NCBI GenBank assembly: GCA_016931535.1
Contig: JAFGEP010000114.1
Span: forward strand, 26,412-90,411
DNA from: Bradymonadales bacterium
GTDB lineage: Bacteria; Myxococcota_A; Bradymonadia; JAFGEP01
Length of the DNA stretch: 64,000 nucleotides
Reading direction: 5' to 3'
Position numbers and translations under genes: made by a program. Every line of letters starts with the position of its first letter. The first letter of the stretch is position 1. Below, one piece after another: positions 24,637 to 38,647 of this stretch. The notes below the pieces were generated by a model. It did not search any database. It was not told the origin of the DNA and saw only the letters and a list, made by a program, of their open reading frames with translations.

Positions 24637-25224
24637 ATGGACGAGCAGCCAAAGATCTCTTCAAGCGCCCTGGACAAGGAATCGCGGATCAACCTGATCA
24701 ACCGGCGGTCGGTCGCCTGGCTGCTGGAGGTGGCAGCGATCAACGCCGTGGTCGCGCCGGTGGTGCTGGCTGTGTACTTCCACGCCCGGCCAGTGGTCCT
24801 GGCGGAGCTGGCCCAGGGCACTACCGCCGTGCTATTCCCCATCCAGCTGGCCATCTGGGGTGTCTACCTGGCCATCCGCGATCTCGTGGGAGCCACCAGT
24901 TTCGGGAAATACCTGGTCGGATTGGGGCTTGCGCCTTCTGGGGATTCCGCCGGAAGAGTGCCGATCGGATCGCGGGTGCTGCGGAACCTCCCGCTGATCA
25001 TCCCATTCGTGCCGGTGATCGAGTTTGTGATCGCCTACTATGGAAACGACCAGATGCAGAGGCTGGGAGACAAGCTGGCCAAGACGCAGGTGGTCGACCT
25101 CGACACCAGAAAGAGCCTGGGAAGCTGGAGCGGTATGCTGTTGCTCGCCTTCCTGCTATTTCTGGGTATCAACTTCTTGCTTGTGCCCAGGCTGATCGCG
25201 CTCTACCTCGGCTGGCTTGGATGA
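24637..25224 (+). CDS. Small polytopic membrane protein (RDD-family-like)
   Basis: Three to four TM helices. The GATSFGKYLVGLGLAP region resembles the RDD family. Confidence 0.45.
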   Translation: MDEQPKISSSALDKESRINLINRRSVAWLLEVAAINAVVAPVVLAVYFHARPVVLAELAQGTTAVLFPIQLAIWGVYLAIRDLVGATSFGKYLVGLGLAPSGDSAGRVPIGSRVLRNLPLIIPFVPVIEFVIAYYGNDQMQRLGDKLAKTQVVDLDTRKSLGSWSGMLLLAFLLFLGINFLLVPRLIALYLGWLG

Positions 25225-25656
25225 TCCGGGGGACAGGTTGACGGTTGATCGGTTCGCCCTCCTGGCGCCTGCAACTCAGTTCCAGCCAGCCTCTCCCTGA
25301 GATCCTGGAGCAACCTGCCTGCTGCCACGCGTTGGACCGCCCGCCGCATCGACCACGGATCCGTTCCCAGGACGGTCTTCTTTTCCGCCGCCTCCTGTCG
25401 GCCGACAGCCCAGCGCGATCGGTCGATCCGGTCAGAGACCCCGACAGCGCCCATCAAATAACTGTCGGGGCATGGCGCCCATGTCGCGATCGAGGGTTTT
25501 TCGGGAGGCTTCCCAACCAGCGGAACCGGGAGTCGCTTTGTCCAAAGGCGGCTCCAACCGGGGGGTATGGATTTTGGCAAGGCACTTGCTAGAGTGATCG
25601 GGCAGCCTGATGGAATCGCCAGTGTGAACAGCCCCATCGAGAGGGAGGAAATAGCC

Positions 25657-26829
25657 ATGATGCGACGAGCTGGTTTGGTGTCTGTTTTTGCTTTGGTCTT
25701 GGGAGGACTCACCGGCCTGGCCTGGGCCGAGGGGGAGGAGTGCACTGCCGACTCGGAGTGCGCGGAGGGTGAGGCATGCATCATGATGCCTTGTGCCATG
25801 CCCTGCGATCCAGACGAGGCGGGAGCTTGCGAGGAGACCTGCGACCCGGTCGGGATGTGCATGGTGGTGGAGGAAGACCCCTTCTGGTCGGAGTGCCAGG
25901 TAGACGAGGACTGCCCCTCTGGTTTTGTCTGCGAGGAGATCGGGGGTGTCGGCTGTTTGGTTCCTCCCTGTCCCGAGGGAGAGGAGTGCCCCGTGCCGCC
26001 GGAATGCGAGGAGGAGACGATCTACGGCTGCGTGCCGGCGCCTTGCCTGAGCGATGCCGACTGCGCGCCGGGTCTGGTCTGCCTGTCGGTCACCTACGAG
26101 ATGTGCGAGGGGATGGCACGACCTGACTGCGACCCGGAGGATGACGATTGCGACGGCGGTTCGGAAGGGGGGGAAGAGGTCACCTGCGAAACTTACAGCG
26201 AGAGCTTCTGTGCTCCGCCCTACCTGGCCCCCTGTGCCGAGGACGCCGATTGCGGGGAGGGCTTCCGCTGTGTCGAGGCCGAAGAATGCGTCTGTGAGGC
26301 CAACGCGGTCGTGCGCGATGAGACCACAGGAGAGGGAAGCAGCGACTCCAGCGGTTCCGAGGGCGGTGGTGCGACCGACGAGGAGGAGCCGGAGTTCGAC
26401 TGCACCTGCGAGCCCAGCGGCCAGTTCTACTGCGAACCCCAGCAGATCGCCTGCGAGGACAACGAGGACTGCCCCGAAGGATGGATCTGTGAGGATATCC
26501 CTGACATGACCACCCCTTGCGAATGGGACGAGGAGCTCCAGGACCTGGTCTGCGAGGAGCCGGCCGAGGAGATGCCCGATCTCTGCATGCCTCCCTTCTG
26601 GAATGCCTGGGGAGCCTCCAGCGATGGATCGGGGTACACCGAGGCGCTCGATGAGGCCAGTGGGGGTAACGAATCCCGCGCCATGCCGGTCGTCGTGGCG
26701 GATCCCGACGATCAAACGCCCCACGTAGGTGGAGGCTCCGGTTGCCAGGTGGCGACCGGTCGAGGTACCTGGGCCGCCTCCCTGCTGGGCCTGTTCGCAC
26801 TGGTGCTGGCCGTGCGGCGCCGGAAGTGA
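25657..26829 (+). CDS. Highly acidic Cys-rich secreted protein with a MYXO-CTERM-type C-terminal sorting signal
   Basis: Signal MMRRAGLVSVFALVLGGLTGLAWA. More than 50 Cys in repeated DxDCPxGxxC/EECxCE motifs. The C-terminus GGGSGCQVATGRGTWAASLLGLFALVLAVRRRK is a MYXO-CTERM signature. Confidence 0.75.
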   Translation: MMRRAGLVSVFALVLGGLTGLAWAEGEECTADSECAEGEACIMMPCAMPCDPDEAGACEETCDPVGMCMVVEEDPFWSECQVDEDCPSGFVCEEIGGVGCLVPPCPEGEECPVPPECEEETIYGCVPAPCLSDADCAPGLVCLSVTYEMCEGMARPDCDPEDDDCDGGSEGGEEVTCETYSESFCAPPYLAPCAEDADCGEGFRCVEAEECVCEANAVVRDETTGEGSSDSSGSEGGGATDEEEPEFDCTCEPSGQFYCEPQQIACEDNEDCPEGWICEDIPDMTTPCEWDEELQDLVCEEPAEEMPDLCMPPFWNAWGASSDGSGYTEALDEASGGNESRAMPVVVADPDDQTPHVGGGSGCQVATGRGTWAASLLGLFALVLAVRRRK

Positions 26830-26834
26830 ATCGC

Positions 26835-26856
26835 CAGCGGGCCGCAAACCGCTGAA
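26835..26856 (+). terminator. GC hairpin (cagcgg-gccgcaaa-ccgctg) 6 nt after the stop of the MYXO-CTERM protein gene; no T-tract
   Basis: Seen directly. Myxobacterial intrinsic terminators often lack U-tracts. Confidence 0.35.
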
Positions 26857-27138
26857 GTCCTATCGACGATCGCTACCTCACAAACCACAACACGCACCCT
26901 GCAGCCCGCAATCTGCACCCTGCAGCCCGCAATCCGCAACCTGCGCGCATCGCTTCCTTGGGGAACTTTCTGCACCGCAGCGCGAGCCCGGGCTTGAAAG
27001 ACTTGAAAGGTGAAGCCGACGAGCGGATGCAGGGCAAGAATTGCGACCCCTGCTGCGCTGATCGCTCGCGCTCACTCTCATGCTCAGGTACAGGTCGAGG
27101 GGAACCACTCCCGGGAGGTTGCCCCCTGCTCCTTCTCC

Positions 27139-28047
27139 CTACAGCCCCAACCTGCGGACTTCCATGGCGCTGGTGAAATGCTCGTCGGACTCGCCGGGGT
27201 AGCTGGTGGCTCGGGCCACCTCGCCGTAGCACTCGAACAGGAAGGAGACCATCCTCTGGGAAGTGGCGGTTCCCACGGCCGGACTGAGCACGGTGTGCGT
27301 GCGCACCAGGAGAGCCTGGGTGAAGGTCAGATCGGGAAGGAGCAGGCGCCCTGACCCGTCCACAACCACCTGGTAGGTGTCCCTGCCCGCGTAGGGCAAC
27401 CCCCGGTACAGCCCGTCCGTGATCTCTGCTGTCGCAATCCAGGTGTCACCGGGCTTCAGGGGAAACCGATAGAGCAATATGGGCGTATCGTACACGAGAA
27501 GGGTACGGCCTTCGGGGGGATCGGGGTCGGTGGAGGCCACTCCGAGAAGGTAGAGACCGGTGGAGTCGTGAAGATAGACCGCTTCGGTTGCTCCGTCGGC
27601 GTCGAAGGCGGTGACGAACTGCCCGGTCGGGAAAGAGGCGGCGTACCACCTGCCGGTCAGCAGGGAGGCGCTGAGTCGGACCACCTGGTCGCTGGCGTAG
27701 TCGGCGCCCCAGTCCCACACCCGCCTGTCGGATGGGTCCAGCGCACCGATGCTGTCGATGGCACGCGCCTGACCGGCAGGCGAGATCAGGTAGGAGATGG
27801 GGACATCAACCGCGGGCTGGAGCTCGTCGGCATCGATCTGGCCATCGAGGTTGGGGATGCAGGTGAGCGGAGGTAGCAGCTCCGGCTCGTACTCCTGGCG
27901 ATCGGGGGGAAAGGACAGGTTGTCGGAACAGGCGAGAGTGGTGATCCAGAGCAGTGCGGCGAGGAGCGGCAGGAAAGAGGCCCCAGGTCGAGATCCGGGT
28001 CGACTGTCGGCCCCAAATCCCCGGGCTCGGTGCTCAGGATCAACCAC
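27139..28047 (-). CDS. Secreted lipoprotein (paralog of 30913-31923); start uncertain (GTG near 28047 preferred over the listed 28266)
   Basis: ASFLPLLAALLWITTLACSDN lipobox. Shares CIPNLDGQIDADE... and a C-terminal EVRRLGL with the paralog, which has CIPNHDGLIDRSE...EIRRLAP. Confidence 0.6.
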   Translation of the reverse strand: MVDPEHRARGFGADSRPGSRPGASFLPLLAALLWITTLACSDNLSFPPDRQEYEPELLPPLTCIPNLDGQIDADELQPAVDVPISYLISPAGQARAIDSIGALDPSDRRVWDWGADYASDQVVRLSASLLTGRWYAASFPTGQFVTAFDADGATEAVYLHDSTGLYLLGVASTDPDPPEGRTLLVYDTPILLYRFPLKPGDTWIATAEITDGLYRGLPYAGRDTYQVVVDGSGRLLLPDLTFTQALLVRTHTVLSPAVGTATSQRMVSFLFECYGEVARATSYPGESDEHFTSAMEVRRLGL

Positions 28048-28173
28048 ATCTTGGTGATTCCTCTTGATGAGAGCAGTAGGGACAGGTCTTGCCCTGCCCT
28101 CGTCTTCGGGGAAACGGGGCGCAGCAAGTGCCGCCCCTACGTCTTGGTATGTGGCCCGGGACAGGGATGGTGG

Positions 28174-28272
28174 CATGTCAGGTCTCGCTCGCATGATCAG
28201 GTCTCCAGCGTGTGCGTCTTGGGATTGCGCCATTGGGGATGGCGGCATGTCAGGTCTCGCTCGCATGATCAG
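28174..28272. repeat. 37-bp direct repeat, two copies 61 bp apart, spanning the OMP-gene stop and the lipoprotein 5' region
   Basis: gggatggtggcatgtcaggtctcgctcgcatgatcag (28174-28200) and ggggatggcggcatgtcaggtctcgctcgcatgatcag (28235-28272). Confidence 0.75.
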
Positions 28273-29849
28273 AATCCATAGACCAGGCGCACGCGGAGAA
28301 GCTGCGCGGGTTTGGCGGGCAGCTCGGCGGTCGGGTTGTCCAGGCCGGACAACGGGAACAGCACCGCGTGCTCGAGTGCCGCCGAGAAGCTGGAGTACCG
28401 AAACAACAGGGTGGGATCGATCTCCACTCCAAGGGGATTGTCCCCTCCCGGCGTGGAAGCGCTCTGTACGGCCCAGGATGCGACGGCTGCCACGGCGAGC
28501 TCGAGGTCCCCCGGTCCGAAACGGGCCACCCGCCAGCGCAGGTGAGGTCGGAGATAGAAGGCATCGGTGACGGTGCCGACGATCTCCCGGAAGAGGATTC
28601 GATCCACCCGGTAATCGGGGTGAAACCGGAAGTTGTCGATCCGGTTGTCATGGGGAGGAGCCGCCTGGGGGCCGTCGAGGTCGCCCGGCCGAGGGGCCGC
28701 GCCGGTCTCGTCGGGAAAAGCCCCGAAACCGGGGGTCGGATCGCCGCTGGCCATCCCGAGGTCGATTCCGAAGGAGAAGGCGGCTTGAGGTTCGCCGATC
28801 TCACTCTCCACAGCCAGGCCATACTGGGTGCCCGAGACCGGCTCATGCAGCAACACCCCGGGGATCAGCGAAGGCTGGTCGAAGCGGGCCAGCATCAAAG
28901 CCCCTTCGGCCTCGATCCTCAGGCTGGGCAAGGTCAGCCGAAGCCAGGCATCAAAGGCGGTGGCGGTGAACCCTCGAGCCATGACCTGAGTCGGGCCGAT
29001 CTGAGCCGAGGTAGCCAGCGGCAGGTAGCTGGCCGGGATGTCGTTCGTCTGCCAGCGGTGACTGACGTAGGCTCCATACTCGAAGGATGGCCTGTGGGCG
29101 CGGAGCCGTCTCAGGATGGCCAGGTCGTTGTAGTGTCGGAGCAGGGCGAAGGTCAGGGTGCGCACGTCGTCGGTGGGCTCCAGGTCGAGAGTCCGCGCGG
29201 GGTTCTGCCGCCGTGCGCTGGGGCCGGTTGCCGAGAAGTCGTAGGCGACAGCCCAGAGGTGGCCGATGAGCGGCGTGATCAATGCGATCCGGTCGCCGGC
29301 GTCCCCGCTGTCACAGTCGGCACAATCTCCACCATTGGTGAGCATGCCCAGACCCCAGTGACACCCCATGCGACCGGCTGCCAACAAGCCGAAAGGAAGC
29401 AGCATCTCTCCGTAGGCACGTCGGATGGTCACCCCGGCCAGCGGTGGCTGCTGGGTAGTGGTGCCCGCCGGGGGTCCTTCCGGAAGGCTGCCCAGCTCCA
29501 GGTTGTCCAAGAGGTCGAGGCGAAGCTTCACGGCGAGGCCGGCCGCCGGGACATAAGCCGACAGGTCCATGCGCAGCCGCATGTCGGCATGGGTCAACGA
29601 CTGGGCGGTCGGATCGGCCAGCGGGACGGGAAACAGCAGATCCCCCGAAGGGGTCGGCCCGCGGTCGAGGTCTAGGTTGTACAGATCCTCTCCCCGGATC
29701 CGAAAGAAGCCCCCCAGCTCCAGGGTGGTTTCCGAGCGCCCCTCGATGTCCTGACCGAACTCGGTGAAGCCGGTGGCATGACCTGCGAGGGGCCAAAGGA
29801 GGGCAAGCAGGGAAAACGCCAACGGCCAGCTCTGGAGAATCGGCTTCAT
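28269..29849 (-). CDS. Putative outer-membrane beta-barrel protein (C-terminal Phe)
   Basis: Signal MKPILQSWPLAFSLLALLWPLAGHA. Alternating amphipathic strands. The C-terminus ...LLRVRLVYGF ends in the typical OMP aromatic residue. The ATG overlaps the hydrolase stop (ATGA). Confidence 0.55.
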   Translation of the reverse strand: MKPILQSWPLAFSLLALLWPLAGHATGFTEFGQDIEGRSETTLELGGFFRIRGEDLYNLDLDRGPTPSGDLLFPVPLADPTAQSLTHADMRLRMDLSAYVPAAGLAVKLRLDLLDNLELGSLPEGPPAGTTTQQPPLAGVTIRRAYGEMLLPFGLLAAGRMGCHWGLGMLTNGGDCADCDSGDAGDRIALITPLIGHLWAVAYDFSATGPSARRQNPARTLDLEPTDDVRTLTFALLRHYNDLAILRRLRAHRPSFEYGAYVSHRWQTNDIPASYLPLATSAQIGPTQVMARGFTATAFDAWLRLTLPSLRIEAEGALMLARFDQPSLIPGVLLHEPVSGTQYGLAVESEIGEPQAAFSFGIDLGMASGDPTPGFGAFPDETGAAPRPGDLDGPQAAPPHDNRIDNFRFHPDYRVDRILFREIVGTVTDAFYLRPHLRWRVARFGPGDLELAVAAVASWAVQSASTPGGDNPLGVEIDPTLLFRYSSFSAALEHAVLFPLSGLDNPTAELPAKPAQLLRVRLVYGF

Positions 29850-30916
29850 CGGCTTCCTCCCCGATCGGCCAGGAAGCGCAGCAGGTCTCGATTGGAAGCA
29901 GCGGTGGCCTCGATCATCGGGAAGTGGCCGCAACGAGGGTACACGACCAGCTCGGCGCCGGGGAGATCGCGAACGAGGCGTTCGCCGTAGGGTAGCGGGG
30001 TGGTGGTATCCTCCCGGCCCCACAAGAGCAGCACGGGCTGACGGATCGTCCGGTACCGCTCCTCCAGCTCCGCCAGGCTGCGATCCCGAGCGGTTGCCAG
30101 CGCCGCCGCCCGGGTGCCCGGGCGATCGAGCGCGCGACCCACCCGGTCTGCCAGGTCCTGAGTCATCCGTTCGGGGTCGTAGAACGCCAATGCCATGCGC
30201 TCATCCGGCCGCTCGCCATAGAACAGCCCGAACAAAATCTCTCCCAGGACCGGTGCGGAAGCCCAGTGAATGAAAAGAGGGGTTTGATCCTCGTACACCC
30301 AGGCGTCGTACAGCGCCAACCGATCGATCCGATCCGGTGCGCGCAGCGCCATGGCCAACGCCACCGAGGATCCCCAGGAGTGGGCCACCACCGAGACCTC
30401 GTTCAGCCCGAGGCGATCGAGCAAAGCCAGCACCAGGTCGGCCTGGGCCAAGGGCGAATAGTCGCCTGGCGGCCTGTCGGTCCAACCGAACCCCTTGAGA
30501 TCCAGGGCGATGGTTCGGTGTGTTCGGGAAAGATCGGGCAGGACCGTCTCCCAGGTCTCCAGAGAAGAGGCGTAGCCGTGCAGGAGCACTACCGGCGGTC
30601 CTTCTCCGATATCCAGATAGCGGATCCGGACGCCGTCTACGGTCAAGAACGTGGCGTCCGCCGGCTCCAAGGGCATGGGACCCTGGTGAAAGGAGAGGCA
30701 GCCGACGATGTTGGCCAGTATAAACAGGTAGCAACAGAGGGCGAGCGCTACGTGGGTTGCAGCGGGAGTACCTGGCGAGATGCCCTGGCTACCAACATCG
30801 CGATGAGTCCGGCGTTTCTTTCCGCAGTCGGGGAGTGACCGATCACTCGGGCAGTTCTGTCGGAAATAGCGACAGAAGTCGGGGAGTGAACCGTGGCTGC
30901 CACCTGACTCCCTCAT
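29846..30916 (-). CDS. Alpha/beta-hydrolase-fold protein (lipase/esterase-like), possibly with an N-terminal lipoprotein signal
   Basis: VVLLHGYASSLETWE, the nucleophile elbow VVAHSWGSSVAL, and a C-terminal YPRCGHFPMIE. Start taken at the ATG overlapping the upstream gene's TGA (30913-30916). An alternative start is MPLEP, c. 30670. Confidence 0.7.
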   Translation of the reverse strand: MRESGGSHGSLPDFCRYFRQNCPSDRSLPDCGKKRRTHRDVGSQGISPGTPAATHVALALCCYLFILANIVGCLSFHQGPMPLEPADATFLTVDGVRIRYLDIGEGPPVVLLHGYASSLETWETVLPDLSRTHRTIALDLKGFGWTDRPPGDYSPLAQADLVLALLDRLGLNEVSVVAHSWGSSVALAMALRAPDRIDRLALYDAWVYEDQTPLFIHWASAPVLGEILFGLFYGERPDERMALAFYDPERMTQDLADRVGRALDRPGTRAAALATARDRSLAELEERYRTIRQPVLLLWGREDTTTPLPYGERLVRDLPGAELVVYPRCGHFPMIEATAASNRDLLRFLADRGGSR

Positions 30917-31923
30917 GGCGCCAGCCTCCGGATCTCGTCCGCCCGGGTGAACTCCATCTCGGCCTCGTTCTGCTCGGAGGTGATGGCCGCCACCGTGCCG
31001 AAGCACTCGGTCACGAAGTAGAAGGAACGGATCTCGGTCAGCAGCACCCCCTGGAGGCGGGAGAGGTGGACGCGGACCCTGAGCACCGGGAAGGTTCCGT
31101 AGGGGGTTTTCAGGGTCCCATGGGCATCCACTCGGGACTCGTAGTCCTCCCAGTAGACCCCCCAGACGCCGACCAGGGTGCCCTCGACGGTGGAGTCGGT
31201 GGTCCAGCTTTTATCCAGCTCGAGCGGGAGGGAGAGCACCACGATCGGGGGATCGTAGGTCAGCTCTGTAGTGAAGAGGGTTTCTTCCGGGGAGACCACG
31301 CCCAGCAAGAGGAGGGCCTCGTCGGTGACCTGGAAGACGCCCAGGAGGTCGGCCTTGTCGCTCAAGGGGGTGAAGTAGGTGGCGTCAGGAAAATCGTCGG
31401 CGAACCACTGGCCGGTCGGAGGGCGCAGCTCGACCAGGACCGAATGATCTCCCTCCAGCGGTCCGGAGAGGTCCCAGGTCCGGCTGTCGTCCGGGAGAGT
31501 GGTTCCAGCGGTGTCCACGTCGACGTCGCCGGTGACCCGGAAGGTGGCCCGAAGCCCAGCCTGGAGAGGGATTTCCGATCGATCGATGAGGCCGTCGTGG
31601 TTGGGGATGCACAAAAGCGGACCGCTGTCGCCGTCGCGCTCCAGGTCGGCGGATCCGTCCGGTAGCGTTTGGTCGGGCATGCCCTGGTCGCCCGGGTCGG
31701 TGGTCGTATCGCCGTTCGGGTCTTGCCCGCAGTCGTCCACTGTCAAGGCGTCATCATTCTGTCCCATGTCGGCATCGCCCTCGAGGGGAGCGCAGCGGCC
31801 ATTGGAGAGGCAGATGCCGGAGGCGCAATCGGCACCGGCCCGGCACTCCACCGCCTGGTCGTCTCCGCAGCCCGACAGGGCGACAAGAGCAAGACAGGCC
31901 AACCGGGTAAGCGGTTTTCTCAT
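30913..31923 (-). CDS. Secreted lipoprotein (paralog of 27139-28047) with an N-terminal Cys-rich CRAGADCASGICLSNGRC motif
   Basis: MRKPLTRLACLALVALSGC lipobox, paralogy described above. Confidence 0.65.
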   Translation of the reverse strand: MRKPLTRLACLALVALSGCGDDQAVECRAGADCASGICLSNGRCAPLEGDADMGQNDDALTVDDCGQDPNGDTTTDPGDQGMPDQTLPDGSADLERDGDSGPLLCIPNHDGLIDRSEIPLQAGLRATFRVTGDVDVDTAGTTLPDDSRTWDLSGPLEGDHSVLVELRPPTGQWFADDFPDATYFTPLSDKADLLGVFQVTDEALLLLGVVSPEETLFTTELTYDPPIVVLSLPLELDKSWTTDSTVEGTLVGVWGVYWEDYESRVDAHGTLKTPYGTFPVLRVRVHLSRLQGVLLTEIRSFYFVTECFGTVAAITSEQNEAEMEFTRADEIRRLAP

Positions 31924-31991
31924 GTTGGCACCACGCCTTGGGCAGATGGGATGAATGGTGCTGGTTCGCAGGGTGCGAGGGGTCGAGGTTC

Positions 31992-33512
31992 TCATGTCGC
32001 CACCATGCCGTTCGAACTGTGGCTGGAGCGCCCAGCCGGTCTGGGGACGAGCGCTCGGCGGGCCAGGGTGGTGAGGCCGAACACCAGGCTTCCTGTGAGG
32101 ATGCCCACGCTGGCCAGGAAAGCCGGGTTGTTGGCCATGAAGCTGATCTTAAACAGGGCGGTCACCAGGTAGCCCACGCCGGCGGCGATCGTGCCGGCGA
32201 CCACCGCCGATCGGCTGGCGTTTCTAAGGAACATGCCGGAAGCCAGGGGGATGAGGCTGGTGGTGATGATCAGGTAGACGCCGTACTGGGCGAAGATGGC
32301 CACCGAGCCGCCGGTCGGATTGGCGATTTGCCAGCGGGCCAGAAAGAAGGTGGCGACCCCCAGAAGGACGATGGACCCTCGGCCGACCGCCAAGGCCGAG
32401 CGGCTTTTTCGCTCTCCAGTCCAGCTCTTCAAGCGGTGGTCGCCCAGGATTCCCAGGTACAGGTCGGTGGAGATGATGGTGGAGAGGGCCAGCAGGATCC
32501 CCTCCAGGGTGGAGATTCCGGCGCACAGGATGCCGATGGAGATCAACACCTGCAGGCCGGACGAGAAGTGGCTGGCGATGTAGGTGGGGACCACCAGGTC
32601 CATGGCGGTGTTGGCCGGGAGCTCCAGGCGGGCGAACAGCCCCACCCACATGACCATCACGAACACCGTGCCGGTGGCGATGGCCACCAGGAGATACTGA
32701 CGGAGGTCCCTGTCCTGTTTCAGGTAGAGCGACTTGGACAGGACGTGAGGCTGGCAGACGAGTGCCAGGCCGACCAGCAGGTTGGCGCCAAACACCTCGA
32801 AGAGGTTCCGAAAGTAGAGGCTATGCGGATTGACAACCCGCACGAGCATCGGATCGGAGGCCGCCAACCTGGCAAACAGCCCCTCTCCCTCCCAGAGCGA
32901 GGGTAGACCGGATGCCAGCAGGATGACGGCCACCACCAGCATGACGACCGCCTGCACGGCGTTGGTGTAGGCATGGGTGTTGACCCCGCCCAGTAACACG
33001 TAGCCGTAGACGAACAGGATCAGCGCCAACGCCAAGGTCCAGGCGGGTATCCCCAAGAGGGCGTGCAGGACATGAGAGATCGCCACCACGATCAGCACGG
33101 CGAAGCTGAGCAGGGCCATCGAGAGGACCGCAAAGGCCAAAGAAAGCCCTCGGCTCCGAAATCGCGCGCCGATCCACTGGGGTACGGTCAAGGCCGTCAC
33201 GGTGGTGCCGAACCGGCGGAAGGCGCTGGAGAAGATCACCAGGCCGGCGGTGATGCCGATCGCGGCGGCCACCCCGTAGCCCATCAGGCCAGCCAGCCCA
33301 TAGGAGAAGACCAGCCCCGGGTTGACCACAAAGGTGGCCACGCTGGTGAGCTGAGCGGCAAGCGAAAGCCCGACGATGGCGGGGTGGATGGTGCGATTGC
33401 CGATGGCGAAGGACTCCAGCGTCTTGGTCCGTCGCCAGCCGCGATAGGCCAGGTAGGCGGTGATCAGTACGTAGGTGGCGAGCGCGAAGCAGGCCAGGGT
33501 GAGCTTGTCCAT
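31992..33512 (-). CDS. Sodium:solute symporter (SSS) family transporter
   Basis: MDKLTLACFALATYVLITAYLAYRGWRRTKTLESFAIGNRTIHP is the typical SSS N-terminus. 13 TM segments. Confidence 0.8.
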   Translation of the reverse strand: MDKLTLACFALATYVLITAYLAYRGWRRTKTLESFAIGNRTIHPAIVGLSLAAQLTSVATFVVNPGLVFSYGLAGLMGYGVAAAIGITAGLVIFSSAFRRFGTTVTALTVPQWIGARFRSRGLSLAFAVLSMALLSFAVLIVVAISHVLHALLGIPAWTLALALILFVYGYVLLGGVNTHAYTNAVQAVVMLVVAVILLASGLPSLWEGEGLFARLAASDPMLVRVVNPHSLYFRNLFEVFGANLLVGLALVCQPHVLSKSLYLKQDRDLRQYLLVAIATGTVFVMVMWVGLFARLELPANTAMDLVVPTYIASHFSSGLQVLISIGILCAGISTLEGILLALSTIISTDLYLGILGDHRLKSWTGERKSRSALAVGRGSIVLLGVATFFLARWQIANPTGGSVAIFAQYGVYLIITTSLIPLASGMFLRNASRSAVVAGTIAAGVGYLVTALFKISFMANNPAFLASVGILTGSLVFGLTTLARRALVPRPAGRSSHSSNGMVAT

Positions 33513-33523
33513 GGCGCGGCTCC

Positions 33524-33988
33524 CTATCGGTCGGTGGGAGAAGAACCCGGTGTGCCTTGCCCGGTTCCATCCGGATCCTGCAGATGCTCGAACAGGCGGG
33601 TGACCGTATCGGCCAGCACCCGGATCTGTGCTTCGACGGTCTTCAGGCGGCCATCGAGAGACTCGATGGCGGTGGCCAGCTTGGCCGGATCGAAGGGAGG
33701 ATCGGCAGTGGGCTGGCCGGCCGAGGAGGCGATCCGGGTCTCGATGGCCTGGATCCGCTGCTCGATCAGCTCCAGGGCGCGCACCAGGGGAGCCAGGTCC
33801 AAAGAAGGGGTCCGGTTGTCTTTGGACCGGGTGGGGTGGAGCCTGCCCAGCTCGCCCGCCAGCTCGGCGAGGCGGTTGGGGTCGTTCAACAGGGCGCGCC
33901 ACCAGGCTTCCAGGGTACGTTGCCAGACCTGGGCGATCTGGCCGCCCAGGGTGAGGAGGTTGGTGGTGGCGAAGGGGTCCTGGTTCAT
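33524..33988 (-). CDS. Small helical protein, possibly phasin/PHA-granule-associated (context-based)
   Basis: Start taken at MNQDPFATTNLL. Predicted all-alpha. Adjacent to phaR. Confidence 0.35.
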   Translation of the reverse strand: MNQDPFATTNLLTLGGQIAQVWQRTLEAWWRALLNDPNRLAELAGELGRLHPTRSKDNRTPSLDLAPLVRALELIEQRIQAIETRIASSAGQPTADPPFDPAKLATAIESLDGRLKTVEAQIRVLADTVTRLFEHLQDPDGTGQGTPGSSPTDR

Positions 33989-34167
33989 GGGAGCTCCTGA
34001 GGGTCCCGGCCGTTTACGCGTTTGCACAATGCGGTCAGGGTTAGCAAGATAGCGAAGCTGGAGATAACAGTCAAGGGAATTTTGCGTTTGCAACACCGGT
34101 CGATGTTGCGATGCCGCCAAGGATGGGGTATCCTGGCGGAGTCCCCTGGGCGAGGGAGGAGTGAACG

Positions 34168-35091: not shown

Positions 35092-36714
35092 TCAGGTTGC
35101 CGAGGGGGCCTCCCGATCCAGCAGGAAATCGGACATGCGGTTCCAGAGCGGCCGGGCTTTGCGGTCGATCATGATCCCGACGTGGGCGCCGTCGATGAGC
35201 ACAAAGCGGTTGTCCTGGCTGGAGACCAGCTGGTTGAGGATCTCGACCGATTGGGGGGGGACGATCCAGTCCTTGCTGGCGGCCAGGTTCATCAAGGGAC
35301 AGCGGATGGACGTCAGATCTACCGGTCGCCCGTGGATGCGGGTCTCCCCGCGGCGGAAGCGGTCGGCGTGAAACACCTCCTTGATGAAGGCCCGGAAGAC
35401 CTCGCCAGGGATATCCACATTGTCGTTGGCCCAGCGGTCCACCGGGTAGAACAGGGCCATCACCTGGTCGTCGCCCAGGTTCTCGTAGAACATCTTCCAC
35501 TTCATGATCTCGTAGTAGGGCTTGAGTGCCATGAAGGTGTAACGGATGAGCTTGGCGGGCATGAGGCCGAAGGCATCGATGATGGCGTCGATGGGTAGCA
35601 GCTCCTTGTCGGTCCACAAGGACACCACGCCGCCTTGTGCCGAGGTGATGGGAGTGGTCAGGGTGACCAGTCGGGAGACGGTGTCGGGGTAGAGGGCGGT
35701 GAGCATCAAGGCCAGGTTGCCGCCGATGCAATGGCCGAGCAGGGCGACCCGCGAGGCCCCCGTCCGTTGTCGGATGACCTCGATGCAGCCGGTCAGCCCG
35801 GGATCGACATAGCTGTCCAGGGTGGTGGTCCGATCGCCGGCCTGGGCGGCGCCCCATTCCACGAGGTACACGTCGGCCCCCTGTTGGAGCAGATGCTCGA
35901 CGAAGGAGTTGCCCGGCAGCAGATCGAGGATATAGGAACGGTTGATCACCGAGTAGACCAGCAGTATCGGGTCCCCTTGTCTCTCTCCCGCTTCGGTGGC
36001 GGGCAGATAGTGATACAGCTCGACCTGGTCCTGCCGGTGGATCAGCTCGCGCGGTGTCTGGCCGACAGAGGTCAGGTCGGGGTCGGCGTAGTACTCCATG
36101 CCGTAGCGGGTTTTCACCGAGTAAGCCTGCAGGAAACGCTCCACGATGCGGGTGGCGTGCTCGTCGGCCTGCCCGGTGAGCATCTGGGTCCAGGCCTCGA
36201 CCAGGGGCCGAGTGTTCAGCTTGAAGGCGGCATCGTCCAGGCTCTTCAGGTCATCGGTGTACTCCTGGATCATGGACTCGAACCGGCTGGCCAGCCGCTG
36301 AGGGTCGAGCTGGGCGGCGCGTTGACTCCACTCGACAGGGAGCCTGGAAAGGCGCCGGGCCTCCTGCTCCCAGTTGGAGGCCACCAGGCGATCGAGCTGG
36401 GAGAAGGTCTGAGCGTGGAGGCGCTGTTGGCCGGCCTGAGGCAGCGTTTCCAGCCAGTGCTGCATCGTCTGGGATTGGAGGTGGGTCAGCTGGGTGAGCC
36501 CCAGGAATAGGCGATCTGCGAACTGTTCGAACTGCCGGGCGGGATCGTCGGGCGGGTCGGTGGCGCCGGAGGCGCCCGAGTCGCCAGGGCTCGCCGGTGT
36601 GGCAGGCGTCTTTCCGGCCGCATCGAGGAAGGCCTGCATGGTGGTGGTCCAGGAGCTGGCCCCCTCGGACCAGAGCCTCAGCAACTTCGAGAAGGGGTCG
36701 AACGGGTCGTTCAT
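35092..36714 (-). CDS. phaC: Poly(3-hydroxyalkanoate) synthase PhaC
   Basis: Lipase-box LLGHCIGGN. C-terminal ...NLAASKDWIVPPQSVEIL...DGAHVGIMID. Start at MNDPFDPFSKLL, overlapping the upstream stop (ATGA). Confidence 0.85.
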   Translation of the reverse strand: MNDPFDPFSKLLRLWSEGASSWTTTMQAFLDAAGKTPATPASPGDSGASGATDPPDDPARQFEQFADRLFLGLTQLTHLQSQTMQHWLETLPQAGQQRLHAQTFSQLDRLVASNWEQEARRLSRLPVEWSQRAAQLDPQRLASRFESMIQEYTDDLKSLDDAAFKLNTRPLVEAWTQMLTGQADEHATRIVERFLQAYSVKTRYGMEYYADPDLTSVGQTPRELIHRQDQVELYHYLPATEAGERQGDPILLVYSVINRSYILDLLPGNSFVEHLLQQGADVYLVEWGAAQAGDRTTTLDSYVDPGLTGCIEVIRQRTGASRVALLGHCIGGNLALMLTALYPDTVSRLVTLTTPITSAQGGVVSLWTDKELLPIDAIIDAFGLMPAKLIRYTFMALKPYYEIMKWKMFYENLGDDQVMALFYPVDRWANDNVDIPGEVFRAFIKEVFHADRFRRGETRIHGRPVDLTSIRCPLMNLAASKDWIVPPQSVEILNQLVSSQDNRFVLIDGAHVGIMIDRKARPLWNRMSDFLLDREAPSAT

Positions 36715-38444
36715 GCGGGGTTCCTCATCGCGAGGGCGCGTTGGACGAGGTCGGTCCTGAGTATCTTTCCCGATGGCCCTTTGGGCAAGCTCTCGAGCAC
36801 GGTGAGGTACTTGGGCACCTTGTAACGGGCCAGCTCCTCTCTCAACAGGGCGATGATCTCGGTGGTCGAAGGCGCGGCGCCCACCCCACCCTCGAAGGCC
36901 AGGAAGGCATGGCCCACCTCTCCCCACTTCAAATCGGGTACGCCCACCGAGGCCGCCTCGATCACGCCCGGGATCCGGTAGAGCGCTCCCTCGACCTCGG
37001 CGGGGTAGATGTTCTCGCCGCCGCTGATGTACATCTCCTTGAGCCGTCCCACCACGTAATGGTAACCCTCCTCATCTTGGCGGAAGAGGTCGCCGGTGGT
37101 GAACCAGCCGTCGCCGGTTCGAGAGGAGCGGGTGGCTCGAGGGTCGTTCCAGTAGCCAGGGCTGACGGTGGGGCCGCGCAGCTGCAGCTCTCCCACCTCT
37201 CCCGGCCTGACCGGTGTTCCGCCCGCATCCACGATGCGGGTGTCCAGGTGCAGGACGGGGAACCCCACCGACCCCGCCTTGCAGATGGCGTCAGCCGGGT
37301 GGAGCGCAAAGCAGTTGGGGCCCACCTCGGTGAGGCCGTAGCCTTGCTTGAACACGATCCCCCGCGCCTGGTACGCCTCGATGAGGGGAAGGGGACAGGC
37401 CGCTCCCCCGCTGACGAAAAACCGGACCGCCCCCAAGTCAGCCTTTTGCAGCACTTCGCACTCCAGCATCATCTGGAACATGGTGGGCACGGCGAACAGG
37501 ATGGTCCCCCGGTATCGCTCCAGAGCCCGGATGGTCCTTGTAGCATCGAAACCGGGCATCAGGACCACCGTGCCTCCCCGGTGAAGCAGCGGGAGGGTCA
37601 ACACGTTCCAGCCTCCCGTGTGAAAAAACGGGGTATGAGTGAGGGTGACGTCGTCCTGGTGCAGGTCCCAAGAGGTGGCGGTATTGATCGCGTTCCAGGT
37701 CACGGTCCCGTGGGTGAGGATGGCCCCTTTCGGCCGGCCGGTGGTGCCGCTGGTATACAGCAACATCAGCGGCGTATCCTCCTCGATCTCCTCGGTGACG
37801 ACTGGGTCGTCCACTGTGGCGTCTCGGAGGTGGGCATAGGATTGGTGGACGCAAATGGCCGTTTCTTCCCGGGTGCCCCGCTGGGTTGTCGCGATCGCAC
37901 CGCAGCCTTGCTCGTCCAACGCTACCGGGGTTTCCCCGCGCCTTCGCTTGGTCGCCTCGGGGTCATCCGGGCTGGCGGGCCAAGCGCGCTCACCGGATGG
38001 AAGAGGTCGCTCCAGGCCTGTTTGCGGCGGACCATCGGCGAGACCAGGGGGATCGAAGGGGACGACCGGTCCTGGCCAGAGGCCGGCGGCCAGCGTCTGG
38101 ACCGTCCCAGCCACGTCGGCGCCGAAAAAGAGGACCCGGGGAGAAGAGTCTTCCAGGATATGGGCCACCTCCCGGGCGGTGAGCCGCCAGTTGATCGGCA
38201 CCAGGATGGCCCCCAGCTTCGCTACTGCAAAAAACAGCTCCACCTGCTCGATCCGGTTGGCGCCGAGCAGGGCGACCCGGTCGCCCGGTTGCACTCCGAA
38301 CCGATCGGCCAGCAGGCGAGCCGCCTGGTCTGCCCGCCGGTCCAGCTGGGCATAGGTCAAGCTGTGCCCGCTGTCGGCATCGACCAGGGCTGCCTTGTTG
38401 CCGATGACCGGGGCCCACTTGGCCAGCCAGCTCCCGTGTATCAT
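36711..38444 (-). CDS. AMP-dependent acyl-CoA synthetase/ligase with a roughly 90-aa insertion before the AMP-binding motif
   Basis: LLYTSGTTGRPKGAILTHG, YGLTE, GELQLRGPTVSPGYW, TGDLFRQDEEGYHYVVGRLKEMYISGGENIYPAEVE, and a C-terminal PKGPSGKILR. RBS aggaga before the ATG. Confidence 0.85.
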   Translation of the reverse strand: MIHGSWLAKWAPVIGNKAALVDADSGHSLTYAQLDRRADQAARLLADRFGVQPGDRVALLGANRIEQVELFFAVAKLGAILVPINWRLTAREVAHILEDSSPRVLFFGADVAGTVQTLAAGLWPGPVVPFDPPGLADGPPQTGLERPLPSGERAWPASPDDPEATKRRRGETPVALDEQGCGAIATTQRGTREETAICVHQSYAHLRDATVDDPVVTEEIEEDTPLMLLYTSGTTGRPKGAILTHGTVTWNAINTATSWDLHQDDVTLTHTPFFHTGGWNVLTLPLLHRGGTVVLMPGFDATRTIRALERYRGTILFAVPTMFQMMLECEVLQKADLGAVRFFVSGGAACPLPLIEAYQARGIVFKQGYGLTEVGPNCFALHPADAICKAGSVGFPVLHLDTRIVDAGGTPVRPGEVGELQLRGPTVSPGYWNDPRATRSSRTGDGWFTTGDLFRQDEEGYHYVVGRLKEMYISGGENIYPAEVEGALYRIPGVIEAASVGVPDLKWGEVGHAFLAFEGGVGAAPSTTEIIALLREELARYKVPKYLTVLESLPKGPSGKILRTDLVQRALAMRNPA

Positions 38445-38476
38445 GACGGCGTCTCCTGTCGAGGCGGCTTGGGCCT

Positions 38477-38505
38477 ATTTATGCACATGCACAAAAATTC
38501 GTCAA
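38477..38505 (-). promoter_or_regulatory. Sigma70-like promoter (TTGACG-17-ATAAAT on the minus strand) in an AT-rich island, driving the acyl-CoA synthetase-phaC operon; flanked by a TGCACA/TGTGCA inverted repeat
   Basis: The minus strand reads ttgacgaatttttgtgcatgtgcataaat, about 30 nt upstream of an AGGAGA RBS and the ATG at 38444. Confidence 0.5.
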
Positions 38506-38647
38506 GTCGAATTGTGCAGAAGCATATCGAGGGCCGCCGGAAAGGCAGGAGGTCAGGCCGGTTACTCGGCTTTCCAGAAGGCCGGCTCGGGGCGCGACAT
38601 GCCGGGAGAGATGCGTGTTGTGCGCCGCACCAAGAAGGCGGCCTGGC

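What the first reader, a model, noticed from the sequence alone, without database searches (positions are those of the whole stretch)
27139..31923. Four-gene envelope operon with translationally coupled ATGA overlaps, bracketed by paralogous lipoproteins
The genes run in order on the minus strand: lipoprotein (CIPNHDGLIDRSE...EIRRLAP), alpha/beta hydrolase (nucleophile elbow AHSWG), predicted outer-membrane beta-barrel (C-terminal ...LVYGF) and a second paralogous lipoprotein (CIPNLDGQIDADE...EVRRLGL). Both the lipoprotein-to-hydrolase and hydrolase-to-OMP junctions are ATGA overlaps. The combination of a paired lipoprotein, a lipase-like enzyme and an OM barrel suggests a dedicated lipid- or polymer-handling or export unit in the outer membrane. 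I do not recognise this architecture as a described system.
Basis: partly seen in the sequence, partly recalled or inferred. Interest (0 to 1): 0.6.

Follow-up and report, generated by a model that had tools for sequence, protein, structure and literature searches.

The report
Outer-membrane module inside a PHA locus
The four genes are a real, tightly conserved operon (an 18-stranded outer-membrane barrel, a lipid-anchored esterase and two related lipoproteins) that in about 80 myxobacterial genomes sits inside the gene cluster for the storage polyester PHA, behind a PhaR-type control site, so polyester storage seems to have a cell-envelope branch that I found described nowhere.

Summary
LP1 (30913-31923), an alpha/beta hydrolase (29846-30916), a barrel (28269-29849) and LP2 (27139-28047) lie on the minus strand. 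The first two junctions are ATGA overlaps, and LP1 and LP2 are paralogs (33% identity).

The barrel scores as TIGR04551, a catalogued family with no known function. Its model has 18 strands and is closest to AlgE. The hydrolase is also a lipoprotein, with an intact Ser-Asp-His triad.

The block LP-HYD-OMP-LP is present in every one of 80 Polyangia and Bradymonadales genomes where the contig allows it to be seen. NTGA start/stop overlaps are conserved at the junctions.

The block is always next to a divergent phaR. Its promoter is flanked by PhaR-type boxes, enriched 17-fold. In 53 of 64 loci it runs straight into a PhaE-like gene, an acyl-CoA ligase and PhaC. In this window the operon also includes a coiled-coil gene and a sodium:solute symporter.

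My best reading (about 0.4) is a PhaR-controlled outer-membrane uptake and periplasmic ester-hydrolysis module that feeds PHA synthesis in these predators. Export, envelope housekeeping and lipoprotein display are not excluded. No function has been tested, and I found no literature on it.

The parts
27139..28047 (-). LP2, the 'LP-down' type lipoprotein (302 aa). Lipobox TLAC with Cys codon at 27930, a short 20-aa linker, then an all-beta domain with a PNxDGxIDxxE loop.
   Evidence: paralog of LP1. (962 homologs; P0001 is the identical 302-aa model). (orthologous group, 53% mean identity). (pLDDT 93.8, all-beta). (weak YmcC-like matches). (weak EF-hand match). (lipobox in 72 of 78 orthologs).
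28048..28268 (-). Unusually long OMP-LP2 spacer carrying a 37-nt direct repeat (28164-28199 and 28236-28272). It is a lineage-specific insertion.
   Evidence: 393 nt from the OMP stop to the LP-down domain, against a median of 128 in other genomes. (two exact 26-mers; none in any of 100 shuffles). (unique, with no other copies in the window or the loci).
28269..29849 (-). Outer-membrane 18-stranded beta-barrel of the TIGR04551 family (526 aa), with a signal peptide and a C-terminal ...LVYGF.
   Evidence: TIGR04551 339.5 bits, cutoff 300. (1317 homologs at about 60% identity). (pLDDT 86.6, pTM 0.84, 18 strands). (AlgE E 7.5e-15, TM 0.51/0.62). (20 lumen-facing Arg; lumen and loops L1, L3, L7 most conserved).
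29846..30916 (-). Alpha/beta-hydrolase lipoprotein (HYD). Lipobox IVGC with Cys codon at 30700, followed by the conserved LSFHxGPMPGEP. Triad Ser (AHSWG), Asp (GRED), His (CGH). In this genome about 55 extra residues lie between the ATG and the signal-peptide core.
   Evidence: (lipobox in nearly all orthologs). (closest PDB: CumD, DxnB2, HsaD). (S102, D225, H253 and the HG motif at least 95% conserved in 71 orthologs; 61% mean identity). (natural HYD-barrel fusion proteins).
30913..31923 (-). LP1, the 'LP-up' type lipoprotein (336 aa). Lipobox LSGC, a small Cys-knot (ECRAGADCASGICLSNGRC), a long acidic linker, then the same beta domain as LP2. An alternative start at 31995 would overlap the symporter stop (ATGA).
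   Evidence: P0002 is the identical 336-aa model; lipobox in 61 of 72 orthologs; median linker 66 aa; conserved CRVGADCASGxC knot.
31992..33512 (-). Sodium:solute symporter family transporter (506 aa, about 12 TM segments) inside the operon, 11 nt after the coiled-coil gene.
   Evidence: PF00474 3.7e-26.. (start, spacing, TM count). (an SSS gene lies in the cluster in 11 of the 81 distinct sequences, this window included, in three different arrangements).
33524..33988 (-). Small coiled-coil protein (154 aa), first gene of the operon. Probably a PHA-synthase accessory or phasin-like protein (inferred only).
   Evidence: 43-44% identity to the 125-aa gene that precedes a PhaC-like gene in L001. 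(no family, only coiled-coil noise).
34018..34092 (-). Operon promoter TTGACT-17-TATCTT (34074-34046), flanked by two copies of GCGTTTGCA (34018-34026 and 34084-34092). These are candidate PhaR operators in the phaR/operon divergent region.
   Evidence: the only sigma-70-like site in 26800-34400.. (TGC-N3-GCA boxes at 7.6 per kb against 0.45 per kb background; at least one in 61 of 67 loci). (S. meliloti PhaR motif YGCRNYGCR, two copies flanking the -35 of phasin promoters; PMC12542648).
34168..34851 (+). phaR, the PHA-granule-binding transcriptional regulator, divergent from the operon.
   Evidence: PF07879 2.9e-26. (TIGR01848 100.4 bits, cutoff 109.45). (divergent phaR found in 67 loci).
35092..36714 (-). 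PhaC-type PHA synthase (540 aa) with a Cys lipase box GHCIGG and a roughly 200-aa N-terminal extension. Its start overlaps the ligase stop (ATGA).
   Evidence: (TIGR01836 class III PhaC 271 bits, cutoff 365)..
36711..38444 (-). Fatty-acyl-CoA ligase-like AMP-binding enzyme (577 aa).
   Evidence: long-chain-fatty-acid--CoA ligase subfamily 426.6 bits, below its cutoff of 476. (a ligase is present in 67-68 of 81 loci).
38450..38640 (-). Promoter-like TTGACG-18-TAAATA upstream of the ligase-phaC pair, with PhaR-type boxes (TGCACATGCA at 38482, TGCAGAAGCA at 38515, TGCGCCGCA at 38621).

Best explanation
The four genes encode an outer-membrane module: an 18-stranded, arginine-lined barrel (TIGR04551 family) and three lipoproteins. 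The lipoproteins are an active Ser-Asp-His esterase, which sits on the periplasmic side of the barrel, and two paralogous all-beta proteins, one on a short tether and one on a long tether. The module belongs to the PhaR regulon and is co-transcribed with, or lies next to, the PHA synthase genes.

Proposed mechanism:
1. When PHA granules form and titrate PhaR away from its operators, the operon is de-repressed.
2. The barrel admits anionic ester substrates from outside. The most likely candidates are (R)-3-hydroxyalkanoate oligomers or other acyl esters released from lysed prey.
3. The tethered esterase cleaves them at the periplasmic mouth of the barrel.
4. The two lipoproteins bind or hand on the products.
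5. The products cross the inner membrane. In this genome that step would use the operon-encoded sodium:solute symporter.
6. The acyl-CoA ligase activates them and PhaC polymerises them into storage PHA.

Shown: the gene content, the folds, the lipoboxes, the intact triad, the synteny, the translational-coupling geometry, the operator-like boxes, and the HYD-barrel fusions.

Inferred: the direction of transport, the substrate, the roles of the lipoproteins, and actual PhaR control.
For: - Conservation: LP-up/HYD/OMP/LP-down is present in every locus where the contig allows it. That is 76 LP-up and 82 LP-down of 85 sequences, with all the missing ones cut by contig ends. HYD ends next to the barrel in 75 of 77 loci; in the other two a HYD ORF is present but offset or run together.
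- NTGA start/stop overlaps occur at 65 of 72 and 65 of 71 junctions.
- PHA linkage: phaR is divergent in 67 loci, and PhaR-type boxes are enriched 17-fold around a -35/-10 promoter. This matches the experimentally defined S. meliloti motif and its promoter layout (PMC12542648). The same boxes lie upstream of the ligase-phaC pair in the window.
- In 53 of 64 loci, LP-down is followed on the same strand by a PhaE-like gene, an acyl-CoA ligase and PhaC, with a median gap of 35 nt. These PhaC-like proteins carry the Cys lipase box.
- Barrel: 18 strands and AlgE-like. It has 20 lumen-facing Arg, and the lumen is more conserved than the lipid face.
- Esterase: lipobox in orthologs and an invariant triad.
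- Fusion proteins P0243 and P0273 read lipobox-HYD-linker-barrel with no second signal peptide. This places HYD at the periplasmic N-terminus of the barrel.
- Uptake direction: SSS symporters were recruited into the cluster in three different arrangements. In the window the symporter sits inside the operon. An acyl-CoA ligase is conserved in the locus.
- Bradymonabacteria accumulate PHA during predation (PMC7460792).
Against: - No experiment exists, and neither direction nor substrate is established.
- The hydrolase scores far below the cutoff of every PHA-depolymerase model (71 against 300 bits for NF050089). Its closest solved relatives are C-C bond hydrolases.
- Only 11 of the 81 distinct sequences, this window included, carry a symporter in the cluster.
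- The same barrel family in Myxococcia has no LP, HYD or PhaR neighbours. There it sits next to lptM-like, lysA and dapAB genes, so the barrel may have a general envelope role.
- AlgE, the best structural match, is an exporter.
- The lipoprotein fold matches are weak (E about 0.01, TM about 0.4).
- The two operator boxes in this window are a TGC-N4-GC variant rather than the N3 form.
Confidence: 0.4

Rival explanations
1. General envelope or housekeeping complex. TIGR04551 would be a Myxococcota-wide porin or envelope-biogenesis barrel. In Polyangia and Bradymonadia it would have gained accessory lipoproteins and an esterase for outer-membrane lipid or lipoprotein maintenance. Its position in the PHA locus would then reflect co-regulation with storage physiology rather than substrate flow.
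For: - Myxococcia members (33% identity, most lumen arginines shared) lie in an fpg / barrel / lptM-like / lysA-dapA-dapB context with no PHA genes.
- They score higher on TIGR04551 than the window protein.
- Loops L3 and L7 are conserved across both subfamilies, so they are features of the family rather than of this system.
Against: - Translational coupling with HYD and the LPs, and co-directional packing with PhaE-like, ligase and PhaC genes, persist across two classes.
- PhaR-type operators flank the promoter.
- Putting a housekeeping barrel under a storage-polymer repressor would be odd.
Confidence: 0.22
2. Export module. The AlgE-like barrel, with lipoprotein partners and a polymer-modifying esterase, would work like the AlgE/AlgK/AlgX or PgaA/PgaB outer-membrane ends of synthase-dependent secretion systems. 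It would export an anionic polymer or PHA-derived oligomers.
For: - The best structural match is the alginate exporter AlgE.
- The architecture of barrel plus lipoprotein plus lipoprotein enzyme parallels PgaA-PgaB and PelB-PelC (from my own knowledge of those systems).
- The LP fold weakly resembles YmcC/GfcB-like lipoproteins of capsule operons.
- PhaR regulons can include exopolysaccharide export genes in S. meliloti.
Against: - No inner-membrane synthase, glycosyltransferase, TPR scaffold or exporter is conserved in about 20 kb around 80 loci.
- The recurrent inner-membrane partner is a sodium-coupled importer.
- The conserved acyl-CoA ligase fits scavenging of free acids.
Confidence: 0.15
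3. Lipoprotein translocon or surface display. The barrel would move the three cognate lipoproteins to the cell surface (Slam-like). There they would form a Sus-like capture-and-degradation complex acting on prey material.
For: - Three lipoprotein genes are locked to one barrel gene.
- The predicted extracellular loops L1, L3 and L7 are very strongly conserved.
- LP-up has a Cys-knot and a long acidic linker typical of exposed proteins.
- Conserved residues directly follow the lipid Cys of HYD and LP-down.
Against: - The natural fusions put HYD at the barrel's N-terminus, which is periplasmic in even-stranded barrels.
- The conserved loops are shared with Myxococcia homologs that have no partner lipoproteins.
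- There is no similarity to Slam or DUF560 barrels or to SusC/SusD.
Confidence: 0.07

Closest known systems
TIGR04551 family (NCBIfam), as found in Myxococcia (Archangium, Stigmatella, Corallococcus)
   Same: Same protein family by HMM score (339.5 against a cutoff of 300). It shares the motifs GRMxxHWGLG, NxGxCxxCDxGD, ASGDxxPGFG and NFRFxxxYxVDxIL, and most of the lumen arginines.
   Different: Myxococcia members are about 615 aa with an N-terminal coiled coil and only 33% identity to the window protein. They sit between fpg and lptM-like/lysA/dapAB, with no LP, HYD or PhaR neighbours. No function is published for either branch.
AlgE and the outer-membrane ends of synthase-dependent exopolysaccharide systems (AlgE/AlgK/AlgX, PgaA/PgaB, PelB/PelC)
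   Same: An 18-stranded, arginine-rich barrel fold (Foldseek E 7.5e-15). A barrel working with lipoproteins and a periplasmic polymer-modifying hydrolase.
   Different: No sequence membership (no Pfam hit). No TPR scaffold and no inner-membrane synthase. The neighbours are PHA genes, not sugar genes. The likely direction of transport is inward.
Substrate-specific anion or carboxylate channels (OccK/OprD family, OprP/OprO, DcaP)
   Same: Barrels of 16-18 strands with basic ladders for anionic solutes. They appear among the structural matches, with TM-scores of 0.33-0.45 normalised to the query and 0.39-0.61 normalised to the target.
   Different: Those channels have no dedicated lipoprotein or enzyme partners, and there is no sequence relationship.
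Sus-like polysaccharide utilisation loci, and the FadL-FadD pathway
   Same: The same logic. An outer-membrane channel, binding lipoproteins and a lipoprotein enzyme are co-regulated with the cytoplasmic pathway. An acyl-CoA ligase traps the imported acid.
   Different: SusC is a TonB-dependent 22-stranded barrel with surface-exposed partners, and FadL is a 14-stranded hatch barrel (TM 0.25). Here the enzyme is on the periplasmic side, and the sink is a storage polyester.
PhaR-repressed phasin and depolymerase promoters (S. meliloti, R. eutropha)
   Same: YGCRNYGCR/TGC-N3-GCA boxes, typically two, flank the -35 element next to a divergent phaR.
   Different: Known PhaR targets are cytoplasmic PHA proteins, sRNAs, and metabolic or exopolysaccharide genes. 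I found no report of an outer-membrane barrel/lipoprotein operon as the primary divergent target.
GfcB/YmcC-like lipoproteins encoded with the GfcD barrel in group 4 capsule operons
   Same: The best, though weak, fold matches of LP2 are 'YmcC-like fold' proteins 3fzx and 4fvs (prob 0.95-0.99, TM about 0.4). Like LP2, these are lipoproteins encoded beside a barrel.
   Different: E-values are only about 0.01, there is no Pfam match, and there is no capsule machinery nearby.

Membership tests
TIGR04551 family (NCBIfam) | Whole-protein HMM score at or above the curated cutoff of 300 bits | tested here: met
   339.5 bits, E 3.8e-101, full-length match 43-526. Public annotation of the identical protein also says TIGR04551.
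TIGR04551 family (NCBIfam) | Architecture and context of the best-scoring (Myxococcia) members: about 615 aa, an N-terminal coiled coil, a neighbouring lptM-like/lysA/dapAB block | tested here: not met
   The window protein is 526 aa with no coiled coil. Its context is LP, HYD and PhaR. Myxococcia members score 450-550 bits. This is a divergent subfamily.
Outer-membrane beta-barrel protein | Signal peptide, even number of antiparallel strands closing a barrel, C-terminal aromatic residue | tested here: met
   Signal peptide and a terminal ...YGF. 18 strands at pLDDT 86.6. 261 PDB barrel matches at E <= 0.001.
AlgE / alginate export family (Pfam Alginate_exp) | Sequence-profile match | tested here: not met
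   No Pfam family at E <= 0.1. No PDB sequence hit with the family profile at E <= 10.
AlgE / alginate export family (Pfam Alginate_exp) | 18-stranded barrel fold | tested here: met
   AlgE chains are the top 16 Foldseek hits, E 7.5e-15, TM 0.51/0.62.
AlgE / alginate export family (Pfam Alginate_exp) | Operon with an inner-membrane synthase and a TPR lipoprotein | tested here: not met
   None in the gene tables of the 7 loci that come with gene calls (L001-L004, L085-L087) or among the conserved neighbours of the roughly 80 loci compared.
Alpha/beta hydrolase fold (Abhydrolase_1) | Pfam match plus a nucleophile-acid-His triad and an oxyanion HG motif | tested here: met
   PF00561 118.3 bits. 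S102, D225, H253 and H35-G36 are at least 95% conserved in 71 orthologs.
PHA depolymerase / 3HB-oligomer hydrolase families | Score above the cutoff of a depolymerase model (NF050089, TIGR02240, TIGR01849) | tested here: not met
   71.2 against 300 bits and 33.6 against 250.6 bits. This is generic alpha/beta-fold similarity only. Substrate cannot be tested with these tools.
Bacterial lipoproteins (LP1, LP2, HYD) | Signal peptide ending in a lipobox with an invariant Cys | tested here: met
   LSGC, TLAC and IVGC in the window. Lipobox in 61 of 72 LP-up orthologs, 72 of 78 LP-down orthologs and nearly all HYD orthologs. Cys1 is invariant in alignment A4. Actual lipidation cannot be tested here.
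PhaR regulon | A PhaR protein encoded nearby | tested here: met
   PF07879 91.7 bits against a cutoff of 25. TIGR01848 100.4 bits against 109.45, just under the equivalog cutoff.
PhaR regulon | PhaR operator motif (YGCRNYGCR) at the promoter | tested here: inconclusive
   Across loci, TGC-N3-GCA boxes are enriched 17-fold and flank the -35/-10 elements. In this window the two boxes at the operon promoter are an N4 variant (GCGTTTGCA twice). Canonical boxes occur at the ligase-phaC promoter. Binding has not been tested.
Sus-like (SusC/SusD) utilisation system | TonB-dependent 22-stranded barrel with a plug, and a SusD-family lipoprotein | tested here: not met
   An 18-stranded barrel with no plug or TonB box domain and no Pfam hits. 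The LP fold is all-beta, not the helical SusD fold.
GfcB/YjbF (YmcC-like) lipoproteins | Profile match or a clear fold match | tested here: inconclusive

The most novel reading that the evidence does not exclude
Polyester chemistry is not confined to the cytoplasm in these bacteria. On this reading, the PhaC/ligase genes and the barrel/esterase/lipoprotein genes form one trans-envelope pathway. It would place, export or covalently attach oligo-(R)-3-hydroxyalkanoates at the outer membrane or cell surface, with the periplasmic alpha/beta-fold enzyme acting as an acyl or oligo-ester transferase rather than a hydrolase. That would be a secretion-type system for a polyester, built on an AlgE-like barrel.
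Probability: 0.07. Interest if true: 0.9.

Novelty: new variant of a known kind. Interest (0 to 1): 0.62.

Why it matters
PHA metabolism is treated as a purely cytoplasmic process built from a synthase, phasins, PhaR and a depolymerase. Here an outer-membrane barrel, a periplasmic lipoprotein esterase and two lipoproteins form a fixed, translationally coupled part of the PHA locus across two classes of predatory Myxococcota. They lie behind PhaR-type operators and are usually in one operon with PhaC.

If the uptake reading is right, it explains how metabolically deficient predators such as Bradymonadales fill PHA granules during predation. They would harvest ester-linked hydroxy acids from prey and polymerise them directly.

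It would also give a first functional handle on TIGR04551, a family found only in Myxococcota and present in hundreds of genomes. And it would supply candidate parts (channel, esterase, ligase, synthase) for engineering the uptake and recycling of polyester oligomers.

Tried and rejected
1. My first tblastn queries for HYD and the coiled-coil protein were cut in the wrong reading frame. They still produced 'conserved' hits, because the overlapping frames of conserved high-GC genes are themselves conserved. I corrected this. The HYD and CC columns should be ignored.
2. An all-against-all BLAST of every ORF in the loci timed out. I replaced it with reference-gene tblastn.
4. Pfam and NCBIfam give nothing for LP1 or LP2. 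The profile search against PDB gives only a weak EF-hand/lanmodulin match to the PNxDGxIDxxE loop.
5. I tested whether the coiled-coil protein is related to the N-terminal extension of the window's PhaC. It is not significantly related. The phasin and PhaE Pfam models are not hit above threshold.
6. I tested whether the two insertions in this genome (the HYD N-terminus and the OMP-LP2 spacer) are copies of a mobile element. No other copies exist in the window or in any locus.
7. Literature searches found no description of the system. I searched for TIGR04551, PhaR with outer membrane or porin, myxobacterial PHA, and 3HB-oligomer uptake.
8. Reading the barrel as FadL-like is rejected (TM 0.25). 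So is the SusC-like reading.

Full report

- LP1 (30913-31923) starts MRKPLTRLACLALVALSGC.
- The hydrolase (29846-30916) is Pfam Abhydrolase_1 at 5.7e-34 and carries AHSWG.
- The barrel (28269-29849) has a signal peptide and ends LVYGF.
- LP2 runs from a GTG at 28047 to 27139. That gives 302 aa, the same length as the public model P0001.
- Both ATGA overlaps are in the sequence, at 30913-30916 and 29846-29849.
- LP1 and LP2 align at 33% identity over 242 residues, E 6e-28.
- The identical proteins are on record from a Bradymonadales metagenome-assembled genome, locus tags JW797_14780 to 14795.

**2. What each part is.**

*The barrel.* It is a member of NCBIfam TIGR04551, with 339.5 bits against a cutoff of 300. 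This family is named but has no assigned function, and it returned no papers. AlphaFold2 on an 80-sequence alignment gives pLDDT 86.6 and pTM 0.84 with 18 long strands. The top 16 PDB matches are all the alginate exporter AlgE (E 7.5e-15, TM 0.51/0.62). Porins, Occ channels and OprP follow. Assigning strand faces by hydropathy gives 20 lumen-facing arginines. Conservation is higher on the lumen face (about 0.8) than on the lipid face (about 0.6). Loops L1, L3 (NGGDCADCDSGD) and L7 (62 residues) are very strongly conserved.

*The hydrolase.* Its closest solved relatives are meta-cleavage-product hydrolases, which says nothing about substrate. Every PHA-depolymerase model scores far below its cutoff. 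Ser102, Asp225, His253 and the HG oxyanion motif are at least 95% conserved across 71 orthologs, with 61% mean identity. Nearly all orthologs begin with a classic lipoprotein signal such as ...LLAGC, followed by the invariant LSFHxGPMPGEP. The enzyme is therefore a lipoprotein.

In this window the lipobox (IVGC, Cys codon at 30700) is present. However, about 55 extra residues lie between the overlapping ATG and the hydrophobic core, and no alternative canonical start codon exists.

*The lipoproteins.* LP2 models at pLDDT 93.8 as an all-beta protein. Foldseek finds only weak matches, to 'YmcC-like fold' lipoproteins (E about 0.01, TM about 0.4). The conserved PNxDGxIDxxE segment weakly matches EF-hand loops. 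Two further cysteines besides the lipid Cys are invariant (C24 and C234), which suggests a disulfide.

**3. Synteny.** A scan of one genome per species found 270 relatives of the barrel, and I fetched the best 80. They come from Polyangia (Labilithrix, Minicystis, Sandaracinus, Byssovorax, Polyangiaceae) and from Bradymonadales.

- An LP lies upstream of the barrel in 76 of 85 sequences and downstream in 82 of 85. Every missing case is cut by a contig end.
- The upstream and downstream LPs form two orthologous groups. Identity is 50-53% within a group and 31% between groups. The duplication is therefore ancient and both copies have been retained.
- After I corrected a frame error of my own, a hydrolase ORF ends next to the barrel in 75 of 77 loci. 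The other two loci have a HYD ORF that is offset or run together with its neighbour.
- The LP-up stop and the HYD stop have the form NTGA, an overlapping start, in 65 of 72 and 65 of 71 cases.
- The 221-nt OMP-LP2 spacer in this window is an outlier. The distance from the OMP stop to the LP-down domain is 393 nt here against a median of 128. It contains a 37-nt direct repeat found nowhere else.

**4. Context: the block sits in the middle of a PHA locus.**

*In the window.* phaR (34168-34851, PF07879 at 2.9e-26) is divergent from a unit made of:

- a coiled-coil gene (33524-33988);
- after 11 nt, an SSS symporter (31992-33512);
- then LP1, with an ATGA overlap if the 31995 start is used;
- then HYD, OMP and LP2.

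Beyond phaR lie a PhaC-type synthase with the Cys lipase box GHCIGG (35092-36714) and a fatty-acyl-CoA ligase (36711-38444). These two are again joined by ATGA.

*In other genomes.* phaR is divergent in 67 loci. In 53 of the 64 loci with enough downstream sequence, LP-down is followed on the same strand by a 92-aa PhaE-like protein, an acyl-CoA ligase and a PhaC. The median gap is 35 nt. This looks like one seven-gene operon. Phasin-like genes and second PhaC-like genes are common nearby.

**5. Regulation (inferred).** The only sigma-70-like promoter in 26800-34400 is TTGACT-17-TATCTT at 34074-34046. It is flanked by two copies of GCGTTTGCA.

Across loci, the 200 nt upstream of phaR carry TGC-N3-GCA boxes at 7.6 per kb, against 0.45 per kb elsewhere. 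At least one box is present in 61 of 67 loci. The boxes are typically placed on both sides of a TTGAC -35 element.

This matches the motif defined for S. meliloti PhaR by EMSA (YGCRNYGCR). It also matches the layout of that organism's phasin promoters, with two copies flanking the -35 (PMC12542648). In the window, canonical boxes also surround a TTGACG-18-TAAATA promoter upstream of the ligase-phaC pair.

By the established PhaR model, such promoters are de-repressed when PHA granules sequester PhaR.

**6. Topology clue.** A profile search of 1.84 billion representative proteins found 1377 family clusters. Among them are proteins in which the hydrolase is fused to the N-terminus of the barrel. 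P0243 and P0273 read lipobox-HYD-linker-barrel with no second signal peptide. P0301 keeps an internal signal peptide and may be an artefact. The N-terminus of an even-stranded barrel is periplasmic, so the fusions place the esterase at the periplasmic mouth. That argues against a surface-exposed, Sus-like enzyme.

**7. Family breadth.** Myxococcia members (Archangium, Stigmatella, Corallococcus) are about 615 aa, carry an N-terminal coiled coil and are 33% identical to the window protein. They score higher on TIGR04551, at 450-550 bits. They lie between fpg and a small LptM-like lipoprotein followed by lysA-dapA-dapB, with no LP, HYD or PhaR neighbours. The window protein therefore belongs to a divergent Polyangia/Bradymonadia subfamily. 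The barrel's core properties predate its recruitment to the PHA locus.

**8. Mechanism.** My best reading, at a confidence of about 0.4, is a PhaR-controlled uptake and hydrolysis module.

1. An anion-selective 18-stranded channel admits ester substrates, most plausibly hydroxyalkanoate oligomers or acyl esters from prey.
2. The tethered esterase cleaves them on the periplasmic side.
3. The short-tethered and long-tethered beta lipoproteins (20-aa against about 66-aa linkers) bind or relay the products.
4. A symporter takes the products up. One lies in the operon here, and one lies in the cluster in 11 of the 81 distinct sequences, this window included, in three arrangements.
5. The ligase activates the acids and PhaC stores them.

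This fits reports that Bradymonabacteria accumulate PHA during predation despite metabolic deficiencies (PMC7460792). Direction, substrate and lipoprotein roles are all inferred.

The rivals are a general envelope role (0.22), export of the AlgE/PgaAB type (0.15) and lipoprotein surface display (0.07). The evidence for and against each is given in the structured fields.

**9. Novelty.** The components belong to known kinds: an AlgE-like barrel, an alpha/beta hydrolase and lipoproteins. TIGR04551 is catalogued. I found no description of the operon, of its tie to PhaR and PhaC, or of any outer-membrane branch of PHA metabolism. I rate it a new variant of a known kind, namely an outer-membrane channel with accessory lipoproteins and a periplasmic enzyme. 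Interest is 0.62.

Noticed in passing
window 28164-28199 and 28236-28272: A 37-nt direct repeat, with an exact 26-mer core ATCATGCGAGCGAGACCTGACATGCC, spaced 72 nt apart. It starts exactly at the barrel's stop codon, inside a spacer that other genomes lack. No other copies exist in the window or in about 85 related loci.
   Followed up: yes
window 30700-30916: The hydrolase has about 55 extra N-terminal residues (lower GC, with a 13-nt local repeat at 30826 and 30877) between the conserved overlapping ATG and its signal-peptide core. There is no alternative canonical start. Either the signal peptide has an unusually long n-region or the gene is impaired in this genome.
   Followed up: partly
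window 26893-26944 and 26971-26979: A 21-nt tandem repeat (2.5 copies, CGCACCCTGCAGCCCGCAATC) and a canonical PhaR-type box TGCACCGCA. Both lie in the gap between the convergent ends of LP2 and the Cys-rich gene.
   Followed up: no
window 25567-26829 (+): A secreted Cys-rich repeat protein with a MYXO-CTERM sorting signal (TIGR04201, TIGR03901), next to an RDD-family membrane protein (24205-25224). LP-up orthologs carry a related small Cys-knot, CRVGADCASGxCxxDGxC.
   Followed up: partly
L088 9001-11061; L089 6001-8052: In Myxococcia the TIGR04551 barrel has an N-terminal coiled coil. It is followed directly by a 66-68 aa lipoprotein (CGIKGPPRPP...) that nearly reaches the Pfam LptM_cons cutoff (24.1 against 27.3 bits), and then by lysA-dapA-dapB.
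   Followed up: partly
proteins P0243, P0273, P0301: Natural hydrolase-barrel fusion proteins. Two have only an N-terminal lipobox and a low-complexity or Pro-rich linker. The third keeps an internal signal peptide and may be a gene-calling artefact.
   Followed up: partly
LP-down orthologs, e.g. L001, L007, L013; window 27919-27930: The residues after the lipid Cys of LP-down are conserved as C-G/S-D/E-N-x-T/S, an N-x-S/T sequon. The hydrolase has the invariant C-LSFHxGPMPGEP. These could be sorting or docking signals.
   Followed up: no
window 36711-36714 and 31992-31995: Two more ATGA start/stop overlaps in the same locus: acyl-CoA ligase to PhaC, and symporter to the alternative LP1 start.
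   Followed up: yes
L086 12455-12733; L085 6898-7167: Small conserved ORFs in the Polyangia loci. One is a 92-aa protein with a PhaE/class IV PhaR-like C-terminus (LPTKRDQERSLHALNQLESRL), present in 65 of 81 loci. The other is an 89-aa phasin-like protein next to phaR. Neither hits any library model.
   Followed up: partly
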